From UHGV virus genome UHGV-0324772: DNA of 8,054 nt. One strand, written 5' to 3'. Below the pieces are notes generated by a model. That model was not told where the DNA came from. It saw nothing but the letters and a program-made list of their open reading frames with translations, and ran no database searches. Shown here piece after piece: positions 1,263 through 8,054 of the stretch (the stretch's first letter is position 1; each line of letters begins with the position of its first letter). Source of the DNA: a virus. The translations under genes and the position numbers were made by a program.

Positions 1263-1712
1263 TTAAAACGGAATATCATCTCCCCATTGTTCATTATCTC
1301 CCACTGGTGGATGGCTTCCTTGCTGATCTGCCTGTTGTTTTGCTCTGTTCAGTGCGTCAGTAGCCTGACCCTGTTGACCTTTTTTGCCGCCCGGTCGCAC
1401 CGTTCGCGCACTGATTACGCTGTCTGCGATAACCTGCCAGCCCTGCCGCGTTTCACCGTTCTGTCCAGTCCACTGGCTCACCTGCATATTACCCGCCACG
1501 CTCAGGAGTTCGCCTTTGTGATGCTTTGCCAGCGCGTCGGCTTGTCTGCCAAACGCCAGGACAGATAACCACATCGTCGCCTGACCGTCATCCGACTGAC
1601 TGCAGGGCAGTGATACCGCCATACGCGCCAGCGTCATGGGGGTGCCCTTGCTGGTCTGTTTTGTCTGCGGGTCGTCCACCAACCGCCCGTAAACTGATAT
1701 TTGCGCCGTCAT
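1263..1712 (-). CDS. ssb: Single-stranded DNA-binding protein (SSB)-like
   Basis: 149 aa. N-terminal region resembles the SSB OB fold (ISVYGRLVDDPQ versus E. coli VILVGNLGQDPE; WLSVLAFGRQADALAKHHKG versus [21 protein letters not shown]), Gly/Gln-rich linker, and the hallmark acidic C-terminal tail ending DDIPF. Start overlaps the upstream ORF stop by 4 nt. Confidence 0.7.
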   Translation of the reverse strand: MTAQISVYGRLVDDPQTKQTSKGTPMTLARMAVSLPCSQSDDGQATMWLSVLAFGRQADALAKHHKGELLSVAGNMQVSQWTGQNGETRQGWQVIADSVISARTVRPGGKKGQQGQATDALNRAKQQADQQGSHPPVGDNEQWGDDIPF

Positions 1713-1954
1713 GCTGCCTGCTCTCCGGACTTAATATTGATTGTTGTCACTTCCTCCGCTTCAGCAATCTCCCGTTCGGTCAGAGTGGCAAAGTTTGCAG
1801 CCGCCGTTGTCATGAATGCGCTAATCAGTTCGGGATGTGCTTTCGCGTATCCTTCCCCGGCGTTGCGGTCGATGATTTTTATCGACACCCTTAACCAGTG
1901 TTCCGTCAAATCAAGGGCGTGCGATTGTGATTTTTTTGTGTGCTTCGCTGTCAT
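1709..1954 (-). CDS. Hypothetical protein (81 aa), translationally coupled to the SSB-like gene
   Basis: Track ORF on the same strand as neighbours; its stop overlaps the ssb start (ATGA). No recognisable motif; weak RBS. Confidence 0.4.
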   Translation of the reverse strand: MTAKHTKKSQSHALDLTEHWLRVSIKIIDRNAGEGYAKAHPELISAFMTTAAANFATLTEREIAEAEEVTTINIKSGEQAA

Positions 1955-2000
1955 AGGCTTTATCTCACAGCAGTAAATTAAAATTTTTGCGTTTTAACCC

Positions 2001-2228
2001 TTCACCTGTTCACCTTTTGATATTTTCTCTTTTAATTCATAATGTTAATGGGTGAACAGTTTCACAAAAACTATTCACCAACTGTTCACCACTGTTCACC
2101 CTTGAAGCTCAATAAACAATCAAAAAGGTGAACAGTGAATAGTTTGGTGAACAGTTCATAAATAACTGTTCACCCTATAATATACTGATATAAAAGATAT
2201 TTATGACAGGGTGAACAGTGGTGAACAG
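2001..2228. repeat. P4-type type-I iteron cluster (TGTTCACC), putative cis replication region / origin bound by alpha protein
   Basis: Nine perfect octamers: TGTTCACC at 2007, 2083, 2093, 2167 and the complement GGTGAACA at 2051, 2127, 2146, 2210, 2220, plus degenerate copies (2001-2006, 2072-2079). An AT-rich stretch lies at 2176-2205. Sits immediately downstream of the alpha gene end, as crr does in P4. Confidence 0.8.
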
Positions 2229-2241
2229 TTATTCCATAAGT

Positions 2242-2686
2242 TTAATTTTTGCTATCGTCATTAGTGACCGATACACATGATGGCATCCAGTCTTCTGATT
2301 CCTCCGTCAGTGTCACGTTTGAACGCAAACCGTGCTTCGTTTTCCGTTTCATATACTCCCTGCCATATTCCGCCATTGCCCCCGGCATATCTTTACCGAA
2401 GCGCGTCAGTGTTACAGGTTTACCAAACCCATGTGCCCTCATATAAGCCAGATAGGCATGATAGAGATACCTGCGTGGGCTGAATGGCACAATTTCAGCA
2501 TTACCCACTAACAGGCCATCACACATTACCGATGCCATGAGATAGCCGCAGAAGTCCACCAGCGAATCCCCCTCTCGCTTTATCGCCAGTGCTTCTTCAG
2601 ATTTCTGCTGCTCATATAACAGGCGTCTGGCTTCGTCCTGATCAGCAAACCGTGTAAGCAGATGGCGAATCACTACCGCCAGCTCA
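2242..2686 (-). CDS. P4 alpha-type primase/helicase, C-terminal region (fragment; track ORF 2242..2673 with GTG start)
   Basis: Translation ELAVVIRHLLTRFADQDEARRLLYEQQ... continues the helicase-domain end seen on the other strand at 2976-3013. Frame is open upstream to a stop at 2707-2709. Ends at stop 2242-2244 next to the iterons. Confidence 0.65.
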
Positions 2687-2687
2687 A

Positions 2688-3015
2688 GTGGTTGGCTTTT
2701 CGCTGATTATCATGCCGGATATGACCCGCTACGCTGGTGATGGGGCAGGGATTAAGGCCATTACAGGCGGTGACAAGGTGGCAATTGACCCGAAACACAA
2801 AGCCCCCTATTCAACGCGTATTCCGGCAGTAGTGCTGGCGGTTAACAATAACGCCATGTCATTCAGTGACCGCAGCGGGGGGATCTCACGTCGTCGGGTG
2901 ATATTCAATTTTTCGGAAGTTGTACCGGAGAACGAACGCGATTCGATGCTGGCGGAAAAAATAGAAGGTGAGCTGGCGGTAGTGATTCGTCATCTGCTTA
3001 CACGGTTTGTTTTTT
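2688..3015 (+). CDS. P4 alpha-type helicase-domain fragment on the opposite strand to the rest of alpha (probable misassembly or inversion)
   Basis: Track ORF 2688..3017. ITGGDKVAIDPKHKAPYSTRIPAVVLAVNNNAMSFSDRSGGISRRRVIFNFSEVVPENERDSMLAEKIEGELAVVIRHLLTRF matches the region after Walker B in P4/D5-type helicases. Its 3' end (2976-3013) is the reverse complement of 2649-2686 with one mismatch. The stop codon is formed partly by adapter bases. Confidence 0.6.
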
Positions 3016-3073
3016 AATGATACGGCGACCACCGAGATCTACACTCTTTCCCTACACGACGCTCTTCCGATCT
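3016..3073 (+). other. Illumina TruSeq universal (P5) adapter, 58 nt, exact: sequencing/assembly artefact
   Basis: AATGATACGGCGACCACCGAGATCTACACTCTTTCCCTACACGACGCTCTTCCGATCT read directly at 3016-3073, preceded by TTTTT (3011-3015). Confidence 0.97.
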
Positions 3074-4064
3074 ACCAGCAGAGGGGGATTCGCTGGATGA
3101 ATAACTGCCAGTCGTACCGGTTCGCCAGCACCATGAATAATGCCGCCAGTACGCGATCTGCCTTGCGGTCATTCTCAGCCACCGAACGGCGCAACCACTT
3201 CCAGAAATTCGGCGCATGTGTTGCCAGCGTTTCCCCCTCTGCTGGTGGGCTGAAAGGTAATTCACTGGCAATTAACAACCAGTCGTTTTTGTTATGCTCC
3301 CGAAAATTACCAGTTCTGGTATCAAATACCCCGTTACTGAATCCAATCAGGTTACGGGCTGTATTCCCCATTACAGGCAAACTTAACTTCATGGTATCTA
3401 CCGCCGATTTAATAGCGTTCTGCGAATAGCTGATCTCCGCATCAATGAAAATCTGCGCCATAGCACGCTGTAACTCTTTATCCTGAACCGGCTCCCATAC
3501 AACGCCGTTGTAATGATGAACGGTGTCAGAGTCGGCATTGATTGCCAGTTCGCCGCCGTAATGTGCAAGGAGAACTTCACCGCGCTGGCTGGCCCCCATC
3601 TGATTCAACGCCAAAGATGAAGCACGCTCGTCATTTTTGCGCTCTGCCTTCTTCACTGGCAGTTCAATCACCAGACTTTCCCCATGCTCCGCTTCAGCTT
3701 TTAGGCCGACAAGGCGCGGAGTCCAGTCTTCAGGCTCTCGATCAACAAAGCTACGGTAACAACGTGCTTCCTTTACGCCTGCAATAGCAAGTAATGTCGC
3801 AACCTTCGTCAGACTTTTCTCTGCAATCTTTCCGGCACGATAAACACGCACATAATGACGGCCTTCATCGATAATTTGCATATCATCCAGGTTTTCCAGT
3901 TGTTCCGTACCCAGAATGACTGGTGGTGTATCATCTGCTGCAATATGCTTACCTGCCCATTCATTCCATTCTTTTGCATGGCTCCAGGCATCACTGCCAG
4001 CAAAAATGATGACTTCCGTCATTTTGTCGCGCGGTTGGTATTTTAAGTTCGGAGCACGTTTCAT
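3072..4064 (-). CDS. P4 alpha-type primase/helicase, N-terminal primase region (reading frame cut off at the adapter junction)
   Basis: Track ORF, 330 aa. Call rests on continuity with the alpha helicase and C-terminal fragments, position in the operon and the adjacent P4-type iterons; an early EVIIFAGSDAW segment is primase-like but not a confident motif match. The terminal stop (3072-3074) is created by adapter bases, so the real protein continues. GGAGG RBS 6 nt upstream; start overlaps the upstream stop (ATGA at 4061-4064). Confidence 0.75.
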   Translation of the reverse strand: MKRAPNLKYQPRDKMTEVIIFAGSDAWSHAKEWNEWAGKHIAADDTPPVILGTEQLENLDDMQIIDEGRHYVRVYRAGKIAEKSLTKVATLLAIAGVKEARCYRSFVDREPEDWTPRLVGLKAEAEHGESLVIELPVKKAERKNDERASSLALNQMGASQRGEVLLAHYGGELAINADSDTVHHYNGVVWEPVQDKELQRAMAQIFIDAEISYSQNAIKSAVDTMKLSLPVMGNTARNLIGFSNGVFDTRTGNFREHNKNDWLLIASELPFSPPAEGETLATHAPNFWKWLRRSVAENDRKADRVLAALFMVLANRYDWQLFIQRIPLCW

Positions 4065-5319: not shown

Positions 5320-6195
5320 CTAAACTGCGTAACCAGTAGCTCGCAAGTCTTTAATAATGCTATATGCTACTTCTTCAATAGAAGAATTGAATTTTTTATA
5401 AATAAGACCATTCAAATCACTTGGAATCACTACATCACCTGTGTATAGACAACAAACCTTAGAACGACCTAATTTCCCTACGAAATAACCAAATTCAAAC
5501 ATTACATTTGGTCGTGCACGTAACTCCTTTTCTCTTTCATTATCAGGTAAAGAGTCTTGCGGCAATAAATAAGCGATCTCATCAGGTGTGAGAAGAATGA
5601 ATGCGAAACCAACATCACTATTTGCTTCAAATTTCTCAATCACTGTCTGGCCTACATCAGCTTGCCTATGGAGAACAATAGGTTCTAAGCCAATTTCTCT
5701 TAAAAACACCTCTAAGTTGGTTTTTGATATTTCATCTCTTCCATGAACAATGAATACTTTTTTGGTTTTTACCGCTGAACTCTGAGGTACTTCAATATTT
5801 TCTTCAACAACTTTGGAAGATATAGGAATTAACTCCAGTCGCTCCATAATCGACTCTAGTTTTCTTATCTTACTCTGGAGTTTACGCGTAGCCTCACTGA
5901 TTTTTTCTCCCAAGGAAGTCTCGTACAATGAAATAACACCAAATGCCCCACCTTCATATTCTTCTTTGAAATCATCATTTGTGAAACTACGCTTCAGTAG
6001 CTCAGCATTAAAATCACTCCATTTCCTGTAATCAGCATTAAACAGCTCCAAGTCACTATTGTTATTTATGCTTTTCTGTAGGAGTAATAATCCTTTTTGA
6101 ATTCTGTCTTGAATTTTATCTTTCATATCATCTCTTGATATGATTAGTTCACAAACAGTTTTCATTTCTACGCTATTTTTTTTTCGAGTAGCCAT
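5320..6195 (-). CDS. TIR-like (COG4271/PF10137-type) domain protein with an unassigned N-terminal domain; candidate anti-phage NADase effector
   Basis: Track ORF, 291 aa. Residues about 145-291 carry the pattern I associate with TIR-like nucleotide-binding proteins: KKVFIVHGRD, GLEPIVLHRQ, TVIEKFE, VGFAFILLTPDE, RARPNVMFEFGYFVGKLGR, IPSDLNGLIY. N-terminal about 140 aa is helical with no TM segment or known motif. Good RBS (AAGGGTG, 5 nt, ATG). Visibly AT-rich compared with flanks. Confidence 0.7.
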   Translation of the reverse strand: MATRKKNSVEMKTVCELIISRDDMKDKIQDRIQKGLLLLQKSINNNSDLELFNADYRKWSDFNAELLKRSFTNDDFKEEYEGGAFGVISLYETSLGEKISEATRKLQSKIRKLESIMERLELIPISSKVVEENIEVPQSSAVKTKKVFIVHGRDEISKTNLEVFLREIGLEPIVLHRQADVGQTVIEKFEANSDVGFAFILLTPDEIAYLLPQDSLPDNEREKELRARPNVMFEFGYFVGKLGRSKVCCLYTGDVVIPSDLNGLIYKKFNSSIEEVAYSIIKDLRATGYAV

Positions 6196-6460: not shown

Positions 6461-7696
6461 TTAACCAGCCTTTTGTTTGAGGATTGTCACTTTTGAATCA
6501 GCACCTGCGATGCTATTGAGATATGTAGTCCAGAGTTCCAGAGCATCCAGTTTTTTAGCCATAAACTTACTCCGATTGTAAACACCTGCCACGCCAGGTA
6601 GCGCATGGCCTAACAGTTGTTCTACTACATAAAATTCAACACCGAGATCACTTAGATGAGTAGATAGCGTTCTTCTAAGGTCGTGTAGTGACCATTGTTT
6701 TTCATGGCCCAAACGTTTACCGATTTTCCCCCCAATCTTGCTTACGCTTTCTCTAATTCGCAGACTTCCCAGCACATAACCAGTATGTTTTGTCTCTTCG
6801 TGAACATCCGTTACCCACTGTCGTAGAATTTCAGGTACTGGTCTGACGATTTCAACACCAGTTTTTGAGTGATCTTTTGGTACAGTCCAAACCCAACTTT
6901 CGAGATCCCATTCGCTCCATTCTGATAATCGGGCTTCACTCATTCGACATCCAAATACTGTACAAAGCACAAACATTTTTCGCGTGTATTCAGACATTAG
7001 TTTTAAATCAGGCTCGACAAAAATTGCCTTCCAGAGCTGGCCGAGTTCGGCTTCATCCAGAACCCGATCCCGCTTACCTGCAATCTGCCCCACATCACTC
7101 ATGCGCAAATCCTTTAAAGCATCACACGTCGCGTACTGGCGTACCCGACAAAAACGAAGAGCTAATTTAGTGTCAGAAAAAACATACGCCGCCATAACTG
7201 GTGCATTACGTTTAATTCGGTCAAAACAGTCCAGCCATTCATATAGGTGAGTGTCATTTACGGGCAAATGACCGATATAGGGAAAGATATGCTTTCGAAA
7301 TCTGCCAAGCGTTACAGCATGAGTTTTACGACGCACCTTACAGTAATTTTCATACCAGTAATTTAGTGCATCCTCCACTGTGACCGGCTTTAAGCGTTCT
7401 TCAGCCTGAATCTTAATCTGGATACGCGGATCACGTTTGTCAGCCAACCAACCACGGCACTCGTCGCGCTTTTCCCTTGCCTGTTTGAGTGACATATCAG
7501 GATATTTACCCAACGTTAGCCAGACCGGAGCAGCCCGGCCACCTGCTAACCTGTAGAAGAAAACAAAGCTCACAGCCCCTTTAGTACTCACACGAATAGA
7601 AAGCCCCTTTCCATCAGCAATGGTGATCTGCTTTTCTCTGGGTTTCCCCAGATATCCTTTAAGCGCTTTGTCGCTCAGTTTGTTCTCGCCAGCCAT
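6461..7696 (-). CDS. int: Tyrosine site-specific integrase, P4-like family
   Basis: Track ORF 6461..7747; likely start at ATG 7696 (MAGENKLSDKALKGYLGKP...ADGKGLSIRV resembles the P4-type N-terminal arm-binding domain). C-terminal catalytic signatures HDLRRT and LLGH...GVYNRS (Tyr). Confidence 0.9.
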   Translation of the reverse strand: MAGENKLSDKALKGYLGKPREKQITIADGKGLSIRVSTKGAVSFVFFYRLAGGRAAPVWLTLGKYPDMSLKQAREKRDECRGWLADKRDPRIQIKIQAEERLKPVTVEDALNYWYENYCKVRRKTHAVTLGRFRKHIFPYIGHLPVNDTHLYEWLDCFDRIKRNAPVMAAYVFSDTKLALRFCRVRQYATCDALKDLRMSDVGQIAGKRDRVLDEAELGQLWKAIFVEPDLKLMSEYTRKMFVLCTVFGCRMSEARLSEWSEWDLESWVWTVPKDHSKTGVEIVRPVPEILRQWVTDVHEETKHTGYVLGSLRIRESVSKIGGKIGKRLGHEKQWSLHDLRRTLSTHLSDLGVEFYVVEQLLGHALPGVAGVYNRSKFMAKKLDALELWTTYLNSIAGADSKVTILKQKAG

Positions 7697-7828
7697 TTTT
7701 AGCCCCAAAAAGCAATACAAGCTGCAATACAGAGATGATTGCAACACACAGATAACGAGGAAAATTCAGTGAAAGCGCCAGATAAACTTATTCTTTATTA
7801 TCAAAAGATTAAGTGTAAAAACCAGCAA

Positions 7829-8054
7829 CTACACGAAAGCCTCAGAAAGCCATGCTAAGTGCTTCGGCTTGACATATCCCGGTGTAAATTCAGAGGTGGA
7901 GCCGCCACGGGAGCGGATAACCTCACCGGAAACAATCGGCGAAACGTACAGCGCCATGTTTACCAGTCCCGGAATTTGTGAGAGATAGACTTTCTCCGTG
8001 GTGAAGGGATAGCTCTCACGGAAAAAGAGACGCAGAAACAGCGGATCAAACTTA
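7829..8054 (-). pseudogene. Lambda gpE (major capsid) N-terminal fragment, truncated; start lies beyond the window end
   Basis: Minus-strand translation from the window edge, KFDPLFLRLFFRESYPFTTEKVYLSQIPGLVNMALYVSPIVSGEVIRSRGGSTSEFTPGYVKPKH, matches lambda gpE residues about 17-82 as I recall them, then runs into 9 unrelated codons and a stop at 7829-7831. Confidence 0.7.

What the first reader, a model, noticed from the sequence alone, without database searches (positions are those of the whole stretch)
2001..2228. Dense cluster of P4 type-I iterons (TGTTCACC) downstream of alpha
Nine perfect copies of TGTTCACC in both orientations within about 230 bp, plus degenerate copies and an AT-rich stretch (2176-2205). 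TGTTCACC is the octamer bound by P4 alpha protein at ori and crr, so this supports a P4-type replication module and identifies its likely cis-acting replication region.
Basis: partly seen in the sequence, partly recalled or inferred. Interest (0 to 1): 0.55.

Follow-up and report, generated by a model that had tools for sequence, protein, structure and literature searches.

The report
Replication origin of a phage satellite
The repeat cluster is real and is almost certainly the replication origin of a known type of phage-parasitic island (a PICI lodged inside a lambda-like prophage). It uses the same 8-base protein-binding word as satellite phage P4, so it is an ordinary, already described kind of feature.

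Summary
Confirmed: nine perfect TGTTCACC copies, the only ones in the window, lie in 2007-2227 (0.23 expected). Three degenerate copies bring the total to 12 sites.

They fill the 287-bp gap between the stop codon (2242, minus strand) of a P4-alpha-like helicase gene and the next gene. That protein's C-terminal domain matches the solved P4 alpha origin-binding domain (1KA8, E=2e-24). It has no recognisable primase domain.

The sites form two six-site units in inverted orientation. Each unit has the layout and spacing of the P4 ori (<<< 13-14 bp > 35 bp AT-rich <<). There is no second cluster in the element.

The same two-unit layout sits directly 3' of the homologous gene in 74 of 80 related loci. 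These use at least eight lineage-specific words, which co-vary with one short segment of the binding domain.

The element is not P4-like: sid, psu and delta are absent. It is an EcCICFT073-type Gram-negative PICI, and specifically the published helper-embedded PICI "11capE" (ori 286/287 identical), inserted in a lambda-type capsid gene. The EcCICFT073 pri-rep-ori module has been tested experimentally.

The break in the helicase gene in this window is an assembly artefact, marked by an Illumina adapter at 3016-3073.

The parts
1955..2241 (.). Whole 287-bp intergenic origin region, between the helicase stop codon (2242-2244, minus strand) and the start of the next gene (1954)
   Evidence: GC falls to 0.22-0.40 against about 0.5 in the flanks. 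286/287 identical to the same gap in the NRG857c 11capE element. The equivalent gap in EcCICFT073 is 288 bp.
2127..2227 (.). Gene-proximal six-site unit: <<< 13 bp > 35 bp << on the + strand, the same layout as P4 ori 9310-9413
1999..2100 (.). Gene-distal six-site unit, an inverted copy of the same layout: >> 36 bp < 13 bp >>>
   Evidence: Inverted repeat I1, 2028-2081 / 2144-2197, 54 nt, 74% complementary.
2175..2209 (.). Proximal AT-rich spacer (35 bp, 80% A+T), a candidate DNA-unwinding element
   Evidence: Its length is conserved while its sequence varies across genera.
2015..2050 (.). Distal AT-rich spacer (36 bp, 83% A+T). It resembles the P4 crr spacer in the same orientation relative to the gene.
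   Evidence: local alignment, shuffle p about 0.001-0.0025
2101..2126 (.). 26-bp centre between the two inverted units. Its sequence is not conserved.
1999..2006 (+). Degenerate iteron CCTTCACC (2 mismatches)
   Evidence: A full iteron occupies this position in relatives.
2007..2014 (+). Perfect iteron TGTTCACC
2051..2058 (-). Perfect iteron
2072..2079 (+). Degenerate iteron TATTCACC (1 mismatch)
2083..2090 (+). Perfect iteron
2093..2100 (+). Perfect iteron
2127..2134 (-). Perfect iteron
2134..2141 (-). Degenerate iteron TATTCACT (2 mismatches; overlaps its neighbour by 1 nt)
2146..2153 (-). Perfect iteron
2167..2174 (+). Perfect iteron
2210..2217 (-). Perfect iteron
2220..2227 (-). Perfect iteron, 14 nt after the stop codon of the helicase gene
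2242..2673 (-). 3' part of the alpha-like helicase gene. It encodes the winged-helix origin-binding domain (residues 498-594 of the intact 606-aa protein).
   Evidence: 1KA8, E=1.9e-24; Pfam Pox_D5
3097..4064 (-). 5' part of the same gene: an N-terminal alpha/beta domain of unknown function, then D5_N and the start of the SF3 helicase
2687..3009 (+). Middle of the same gene (helicase core), present in inverted orientation. This is an assembly artefact.
   Evidence: inverted relative to L004 14904-15226
1263..1954 (-). Next genes of the replication module: an 81-aa hypothetical protein (1709-1954) and a single-stranded-DNA-binding protein (1263-1712)
   Evidence: EcCICFT073 has the same order.

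Best explanation
Window 1955-2241 is the vegetative replication origin of a phage-inducible chromosomal island: a helper-embedded PICI of the '11capE' type, related to EcCICFT073.

Inferred mechanism, by homology with P4 alpha and other SF3 initiator-helicases:
- The island's own 606-aa protein, encoded immediately upstream on the minus strand, binds the 12 TGTTCACC-type sites through its C-terminal winged-helix domain.
- Neighbouring sites are 10-11 bp apart, so bound domains lie on one face of the helix.
- Oppositely oriented sites bracket two 35-36-bp segments of 80-83% A+T, where the duplex is opened.
- The SF3 helicase part of the same protein is then loaded there. The mirror symmetry of the two units suits loading in both directions.
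- Because the protein has no recognisable primase domain, priming is presumably left to the host.

Shown here: the anatomy, the homology of the binding domain, the conservation of the sites, the co-variation of protein and site, and the near-identity to a published element. Inferred: binding, melting, helicase loading and actual firing.
For: Statistics: 9 perfect copies against 0.23 expected, all in one 221-bp stretch.

Cognate protein next door: residues 498-594 match the P4 alpha origin-binding domain 1KA8 (E=1.9e-24). Pfam finds D5_N, DUF5906 and Pox_D5. tblastn gives 50.6% identity to P4 alpha residues 323-771.

Layout: each half reproduces P4 ori, <<< 13/14 > 35 <<.

Single cluster: there is only one in the whole 11-kb element. 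In 74 of 80 related loci from many genera there is exactly one cluster, and it starts 14-45 bp after the stop codon.

Purifying selection: across 10 loci that are only 63-70% identical in this region, iteron columns are 0.95 conserved and other columns 0.69; 78% against 28% are invariant.

Co-variation: there are at least 8 iteron words among relatives. The short segment between the conserved EY and SN residues of the binding domain (the wing, by winged-helix topology) tracks the word. At >=75% backbone identity, that segment is 0.81 identical when the word is shared and 0.30 when it differs.

[quoted passage not shown] That region has the same two-unit layout with the words TGTCTACC/TATCTACC, and its Rep is 43.6% identical to this one.

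Circulating forms: the same pri-ori module lies on a 10.8-kb circular record assembled as a separate replicon (L001). It also lies in a 16.5-kb 'induced prophage' record (L087).
Against: No experiment exists on this sequence.

In NRG857c, attP and attB levels of 11capE were nearly equal after excision in two of three repeats, so autonomous replication of the excised island was not evident (PMC10111431).

The protein lacks the Zn-ribbon and Toprim primase domains of P4 alpha, and its N-terminal domain has no recognisable fold match. How priming occurs is therefore unknown.

In P4 itself the cluster located downstream of alpha is crr, not ori.

In this particular window the helicase gene is interrupted, although the interruption is marked by a sequencing adapter and is absent from complete genomes.
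Confidence: 0.85

Rival explanations
1. The cluster is only a crr-type auxiliary element, as in P4, that enhances initiation at a separate origin elsewhere in the island.
For: It occupies the position that crr has in P4, directly 3' of the alpha gene. Its distal AT-rich spacer resembles the crr spacer (p about 0.001).
Against: There is no second cluster in the 11-kb element, nor within the available flanks of any of the 80 related loci, at <=1 mismatch. Both halves have the site order of P4 ori, not that of crr (< 6 >>> 35 <<). The 120-bp direct repeats of crr are absent. In EcCICFT073 rep plus this region alone supports plasmid maintenance. Bipartite ori+crr was seen only in P4 and in P4-type elements carrying sid/delta/psu.
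Confidence: 0.06
2. The sites are mainly a transcriptional operator. The helicase protein would bind them to regulate read-through from its own gene into the downstream SSB/capsid genes, or to autoregulate, with no origin function.
For: The cluster lies between co-directional genes. Initiator proteins often double as repressors (general knowledge).
Against: No sigma-70-like promoter and no intrinsic terminator was found in 1650-2700 beyond chance. The AT-rich spacers of fixed length flanked by inverted sites are an origin hallmark. The homologous region was tested as an origin in EcCICFT073. A regulatory role in addition to origin function is not excluded.
Confidence: 0.05
3. The cluster is a packaging (cos/pac) or partition site, or an inactive relic.
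For: Repeat clusters occur at such sites (general knowledge). In this window the helicase gene is broken.
Against: No par genes are present and no lambda cosN-like sequence lies in the island. The repeats are the binding word of a replication-initiator domain. The sites are under strong conservation across genera. The gene break is an adapter-marked artefact. The region is intact in 668 of 5426 complete E. coli genomes.
Confidence: 0.03

Closest known systems
Bacteriophage P4 ori (six type I iterons, P4 9310-9413)
   Same: Identical octamer TGTTCACC. Identical site order and near-identical spacing in each half of the window cluster: <<< 13/14 bp > 35 bp AT-rich <<. The cognate protein has a homologous winged-helix origin-binding domain and SF3 helicase.
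   Different: P4 has one such unit, 2.3 kb upstream of the alpha start codon and about 4.7 kb from crr. It also has type 2 repeats and (from the P4 literature, my knowledge) needs crr in cis. Here two units lie head to head directly 3' of the gene and there is no second cluster. P4 alpha carries Zn-ribbon and Toprim primase domains that are absent here.
Bacteriophage P4 crr (cis replication region, P4 4291-4590)
   Same: Position immediately 3' of the alpha gene, the same octamer, and an AT-rich spacer similar to the distal spacer 2015-2050.
   Different: crr is two 120-bp direct repeats with the site order < 6 >>> 35 <<, separated from alpha by a terminator, and it is not the initiation site. 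The window has an inverted pair of ori-type units and no terminator.
EcCICFT073 pri-rep-ori module (Gram-negative PICI; Fillol-Salom et al. 2018, PMC6092414)
   Same: Origin immediately 3' of pri-rep in a 288-bp gap (287 bp here). The same two-unit iteron/AT-rich layout. The same neighbours: DUF4222 upstream; small ORF, SSB, major capsid and head decoration genes downstream. This module was tested experimentally.
   Different: The iteron words are TGTCTACC/TATCTACC instead of TGTTCACC. The Rep is only 43.6% identical, with a different EY-SN (inferred wing) segment. The island is integrated in the chromosome, not in a prophage.
Helper-embedded PICI Eco567.11capE of E. coli NRG857c (Mageeney et al. 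2023, PMC10111431)
   Same: The same island: ori gap 286/287 identical, the same int, alpA, primase, SSB, capsid and decoration genes, and the same insertion point in the lambda-type E capsid gene, with the 10-bp identity block found in strain W284.
   Different: The accessory gene between alpA and the icd-like gene differs: a TIR-domain protein here and a hypothetical protein in NRG857c. The paper mentions the origin but does not describe its iterons ('iteron' occurs 0 times).

Membership tests
P4 alpha-type iteron replicon (alpha / type I iterons) | Clustered TGTTCACC (type I) iterons | tested here: met
   9 perfect and 3 degenerate copies in 1999-2227. It is the same word as the annotated P4 'ori type 1 repeat'.
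P4 alpha-type iteron replicon (alpha / type I iterons) | Adjacent gene for an SF3 helicase with the alpha-type C-terminal winged-helix origin-binding domain | tested here: met
   1KA8 E=1.9e-24 over residues 498-594. Pfam D5_N, DUF5906, Pox_D5. 50.6% identity to alpha 323-771.
P4 alpha-type iteron replicon (alpha / type I iterons) | N-terminal DnaG-type primase (Zn ribbon + Toprim) in the same polypeptide | tested here: not met
   No Zn_Ribbon_Prim or Toprim hit, whereas P4 alpha scores both in the same scan. The protein is about 170 aa shorter at the N-terminus. There is no Pfam hit for residues 1-171 at E<=1.
P4 alpha-type iteron replicon (alpha / type I iterons) | Bipartite cis elements: ori and a distant crr | tested here: not met
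   There is a single cluster in the element and in 74/80 relatives. P4 and a diverged sid/psu-bearing relative have two.
P4 alpha-type iteron replicon (alpha / type I iterons) | Protein binds the iterons and drives replication from them | not testable with these tools
   Only indirect support: co-variation of the EY-SN (inferred wing) segment with the iteron word.
P4-like satellite (element level) | Capsid-size and helper-control genes sid, psu, delta (and epsilon) | tested here: not met
   tblastn of all P4 proteins against the element finds only int (25%), alpha and vis/AlpA.
Gram-negative PICI replication module (EcCICFT073 type) | Origin immediately 3' of the pri-rep gene, made of iteron sets flanking AT-rich DNA | tested here: met
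   Definition taken from PMC6092414.
Gram-negative PICI replication module (EcCICFT073 type) | Unidirectional gene order int - alpA - ... - pri-rep - ori - (SSB) - capsid/decoration homologues | tested here: met
   Window ORFs and Pfam, L004 annotation, compared with CFT073.
Gram-negative PICI replication module (EcCICFT073 type) | Rep homologous to the EcCICFT073 Pri-Rep | tested here: met
   43.6% identity over the full length, E=8e-172.
Gram-negative PICI replication module (EcCICFT073 type) | rep + ori sufficient for plasmid maintenance | not testable with these tools
   Shown only for EcCICFT073.
Helper-embedded PICI (11capE) | [quoted passage not shown] | tested here: met
   Window 7860-8054 is 100% identical to lambda E and adjoins int at 6461-7747. 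Both halves of E flank the island in L004 and in NRG857c.
Helper-embedded PICI (11capE) | 10-bp attL/attR identity block | tested here: met
   TGCTTGGGTT lies at both ends in L004. The window has only one junction, at 7860-7869 (TGCTTCGGCT).

The most novel reading that the evidence does not exclude
The compact, mirror-symmetric double unit found here, and directly 3' of the homologous gene in most relatives sampled, may be the ancestral form of the origin of alpha-family replicons. On this reading, P4's long-puzzling split into ori and a distant, duplicated crr is a derived rearrangement: ori would correspond to the gene-proximal unit and crr to a variant of the gene-distal unit. In addition, the short EY-SN segment of the origin-binding domain (the wing, by winged-helix topology) would set the iteron word, giving at least eight mutually orthogonal replicon specificities among satellites. 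The shared word TGTTCACC would then let P4 alpha and this PICI's initiator fire or titrate each other's origins in the many E. coli strains that carry both kinds of element.
Probability: 0.35. Interest if true: 0.45.

Novelty: already known. Interest (0 to 1): 0.2.

Why it matters
This fixes the annotation of a common but unannotated intergenic region. It is present in 668 of 5426 complete E. coli genomes, with no feature annotated over the repeats themselves. It is the origin of a PICI replicon, and it shows that the island uses P4's DNA-binding word and origin layout without being a P4-type satellite.

In practice it gives a ready-made minimal replicon to test (helicase gene plus 287 bp). 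It also gives a set of natural specificity variants for studying how winged-helix initiators read their sites, and a reason to look for cross-talk between P4-type satellites and PICIs in the same cell.

For a helper-embedded island, an active origin inside the prophage could also amplify the helper's late region. That idea was already raised by the island's discoverers.

Tried and rejected
- Rfam scan of the whole window: no family at gathering score.
- Promoter/terminator scan of 1650-2700: no promoter-like site, and one terminator-like site inside the artefact zone, which is no more than chance.
- Search for a second iteron cluster as a separate ori: none in the element or in any relative apart from P4-type elements.
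- Lambda cosN in the island: only the prophage's own cos was found.
- AlphaFold2 of the binding domain from a single sequence: pLDDT 45, unusable. Calling the variable segment 'the wing' therefore rests on winged-helix topology as described for 1KA8 in PMC2777425, not on a model.
- AlphaFold2 of the N-terminal 330 aa with a shallow alignment: only residues 20-125 are confident, forming a small alpha/beta domain. A Foldseek search against PDB gave nothing below E=0.2, so 'degenerate Toprim' could be neither shown nor excluded.
- Full-text search for the bare octamer returned only unrelated primer sequences.
- Two literature searches failed on term length.
- Reading the cluster as P4 crr was rejected because the site order differs and the 120-bp direct repeats are absent.
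- Reading the helicase gene as a genuine pseudogene was rejected because of the adapter sequence and the intact copies elsewhere.

Full report
**1. The observation**

A pattern search finds nine perfect TGTTCACC in the 8054-bp window. All lie between 2007 and 2227, four on the + strand and five on the - strand. Chance predicts 0.23, and the maximum in 200 dinucleotide-preserving shuffles was 2.

With one mismatch allowed, a tenth site appears in the cluster (TATTCACC, 2072-2079). Two further sites with two mismatches (CCTTCACC at 1999-2006; TATTCACT on the - strand at 2134-2141) sit exactly where related sequences have full sites. That makes 12 sites in all.

G+C falls from about 0.5 in the flanking genes to 0.22-0.40 across 1960-2260. 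A second one, at 2015-2050 (83% A+T), was not mentioned.

**2. State of the window**

Compared with a complete genome (E. coli W284, locus L004) the window is 99.9% identical but scrambled:
- 142-321 and 2687-3009 are inverted.
- Three short pieces are missing.
- 3010-3096 is foreign.

Positions 3016-3073 are a perfect 58-nt Illumina TruSeq universal adapter. The apparent break in the helicase gene is therefore an assembly artefact. The repeat cluster lies inside an undisturbed collinear block (320-2686).

**3. The neighbouring gene**

In intact copies, a 606-aa protein is encoded on the minus strand and ends at window 2242, 14 nt from the first iteron.
- Residues 498-594 match the crystal structure of the P4 alpha origin-binding domain (1KA8, E=1.9e-24).
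- Pfam finds D5_N, DUF5906 (SF3 helicase) and Pox_D5.
- tblastn gives 50.6% identity to P4 alpha residues 323-771.
- P4 alpha additionally scores Zn_Ribbon_Prim and Toprim in the same scan. This protein does not, and it is about 170 residues shorter at the N-terminus.
- A model of the N-terminal part shows only a small alpha/beta domain with no significant structural neighbour.

'Downstream of alpha' is therefore right in substance, but the protein is an alpha-type helicase and origin binder without a recognisable primase.

**4. Anatomy of the cluster**

Read from the stop codon, the sites run: > 2 > 35 < 13 > (degenerate >) > 26 < 2 < 3 < 13 > 36 < (degenerate <).

P4 ori, read on its reverse strand, is > 2 > 35 < 14 > 3 > 2 >. 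Each half of the window cluster is therefore a six-site unit with the site order and spacing of P4 ori, and the two units face each other.
- A 54-nt inverted repeat, 74% complementary, extends into the spacers.
- As single-stranded DNA the whole region folds into one long hairpin (z = -8.5).
- Neighbouring sites are 10-11 bp apart.
- Oppositely oriented sites bracket the two AT-rich spacers at 43-44 bp start to start.

The P4 crr unit is different: < 6 >>> 35 <<, repeated directly at 180-bp intervals. However, the gene-distal spacer (2015-2050) resembles the crr spacers in the same orientation relative to the gene (shuffle p about 0.001-0.0025). The proximal spacer resembles the ori spacer only weakly (p about 0.04-0.08).

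**5. One cluster, not two**

P4 has 11 perfect iterons in two clusters, crr and ori. The element here has one cluster. The only other perfect copy inside the island (L004 9139-20114) is a single site at 11000; a further single copy at 3438 lies in the flanking prophage. A scan allowing one mismatch finds no second cluster.

**6. Relatives**

A scan of one genome per species returned 80 loci encoding relatives of the protein.
- In 74 of them there is exactly one cluster, spanning about 100-330 bp (most about 200-230 bp) and starting 14-45 bp after the stop codon.
- None has two clusters. Five have none at the threshold used, and one has only a weak cluster elsewhere.
- The two-unit layout recurs in Klebsiella, Citrobacter, Raoultella, Pectobacterium, Serratia, Rahnella, Lelliottia, Xenorhabdus, Photorhabdus and others. 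This includes loci whose protein is full length, with an alpha-like N-terminus.
- None of these loci carries sid, psu or delta.

By contrast, the P4 crr-alpha-ori segment is present at 95-99% identity in about 960 E. coli genomes. A diverged relative that does carry sid-, delta- and psu-like genes keeps a crr-type cluster after alpha and an ori-type cluster between vis and sid. In this sample the bipartite arrangement is therefore a trait of the P4 clade, and the compact double unit is the general one.

**7. Evidence that the sites are functional and cognate**

Ten loci with the word TGTTCACC are only 63-70% identical to the window in this gap. Even so, iteron columns are 0.95 conserved against 0.69 for the rest, and 78% against 28% are invariant. 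Spacer lengths are fixed while spacer sequences drift.

Other lineages use other words in the same layout:
- TGTCTACC
- TCTCCACC
- TGTCCGCC
- TGTCCACC
- TATCTACC
- TATACACC
- TGTATACC

In an alignment of the binding domains, helix 2 (YLYHAYLAY) and the following helix are nearly constant. The segment between the conserved EY and SN residues differs by word, including 1- and 5-residue insertions. By winged-helix topology this segment is the beta-hairpin wing (PMC2777425).

Among pairs with at least 75% identity in the rest of the domain, this segment is 0.81 identical when the word is shared (n=62) and 0.30 when it differs (n=119). The pairs are not phylogenetically independent, so this is supporting evidence, not proof.

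**8. What the element is**

The gene order is int, alpA, accessory gene, icd-like, DUF4222, helicase, origin, small ORF, SSB, major capsid homologue, head-decoration homologue. This matches EcCICFT073.

[quoted passage not shown] It was shown, together with rep, to be needed for maintenance of a temperature-sensitive plasmid (PMC6092414). The EcCICFT073 gap is 288 bp, has the same layout with TGTCTACC/TATCTACC, and its Rep is 43.6% identical to this one.

The island here lies inside the major capsid gene of a lambdoid prophage.
- Window 7860-8054 is 100% lambda E.
- In L004 the two halves of E flank an 11-kb island bounded by the 10-bp repeat TGCTTGGGTT.
- This is the published helper-embedded PICI 11capE (PMC10111431).
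- In its type strain NRG857c the origin gap is 286/287 identical to the window.

The origin sequence occurs in 668 of 5426 complete E. coli genomes, with only the neighbouring primase gene listed among the annotated features under the match. It also lies on a 10.8-kb circular record assembled as a plasmid and, at 74% identity, in a 16.5-kb record from induced particles.

**9. Mechanism**

From the P4 literature (my knowledge: Flensburg and Calendar 1987; Ziegelin et al. 1993, 1995; Yeo et al. 2002, the last cited in PMC2777425), alpha binds type I iterons through its C-terminal winged-helix domain, opens ori and acts as helicase and primase.

By homology, the island's protein most likely does the following:
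- It binds the 12 sites.
- It melts one or both AT-rich spacers.
- It loads itself as an SF3 hexamer. The mirror symmetry would allow loading in both directions.
- Priming is probably left to the host.

Binding, melting and firing are inferred. The one published induction experiment on 11capE did not show clear replication of the excised island, which is the main caution.

**10. Rivals**

- *crr-only role.* Contradicted by the absence of any other cluster, by the ori-type site order and by the EcCICFT073 plasmid test.
- *Purely regulatory operator.* Not supported by promoter or terminator scans, but it could coexist with origin function.
- *Packaging or partition site, or relic.* Does not fit the initiator-type word, the conservation or the gene content.

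**11. Verdict**

The kind of feature, and this very island, are already in the literature, so novelty is low. Three things may go beyond what the papers read here describe:
- Each half has the same site order and near-identical spacing as P4 ori.
- P4's split ori/crr may be a derived form of this compact origin.
- The wing segment tracks the iteron word.

Noticed in passing
window 3016-3073 (also 142-321, 2687-3009, 3010-3096): A perfect 58-nt Illumina TruSeq universal adapter is embedded in the sequence. It is flanked by an inverted 323-bp piece of the helicase gene. A second inverted piece (142-321) and three small deletions scramble the island's own capsid gene, so ORF 287-1219 is chimeric. 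These are assembly artefacts and are absent from complete genomes.
   Followed up: yes
window 7748-8054; L004 9131-9140 and 20116-20125: The island is inserted after codon 82 of a lambda-type major capsid gene E, next to its integrase and co-oriented with E. A 10-bp identity block marks both ends in strain W284. This is the published 'helper-embedded PICI' configuration (11capE). At least 36 complete E. coli genomes share this junction.
   Followed up: yes
window 5320-6195 (- strand): A 291-aa protein with a CAP12/Pycsar-type TIR effector domain (Pfam E=1e-33) sits between alpA and the icd-like gene. In NRG857c the same slot holds an unrelated hypothetical gene on the opposite strand. The slot therefore looks like an exchangeable accessory (defence?) position.
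   Followed up: partly
window 3700-4064 (- strand; residues 1-125 of the helicase protein): The N-terminal domain that replaces P4 alpha's Zn-ribbon/Toprim primase is predicted as a small beta-alpha-beta domain (pLDDT 70-86). It has no Pfam hit and no significant structural neighbour, so how this replicon is primed is open.
   Followed up: partly
window 1963-1990; same position in L005-L019: A block just beyond the last iteron (ACGCAxAxTTTTxAATTT in the gene's orientation) is conserved across six genera, although it is not an iteron. No promoter-like match was found and its role is unknown.
   Followed up: no
L005-L084, L086 (regions directly 3' of the helicase genes): Relatives use at least eight different 8-bp iteron words in the same two-unit layout. 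One short segment of the binding domain, including 1- and 5-residue insertions, changes with the word while the rest of the domain stays nearly constant.
   Followed up: yes
window 1995-2235: Because of its mirror symmetry the whole origin folds, as single-stranded DNA, into one long imperfect hairpin (-47 kcal/mol, z = -8.5). Whether cruciform or hairpin forms matter, for example for priming, was not examined.
   Followed up: no
L001 (NZ_CP148328.1, 10,790-bp circular record): A record deposited as a small E. coli plasmid is really a PICI-like circle: int, alpA, the same helicase-origin module with 9 perfect TGTTCACC, a protease/capsid fusion gene, and a DUF1441 gene. This suggests an excised or autonomously maintained form.
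   Followed up: partly
L004 9295-11011 (outside the window, far end of the island): A DUF262/HEPN gene pair lies at the far end of the island, next to the 3' half of the interrupted capsid gene. It is a second candidate accessory or defence cargo and is also present in NRG857c.
   Followed up: no
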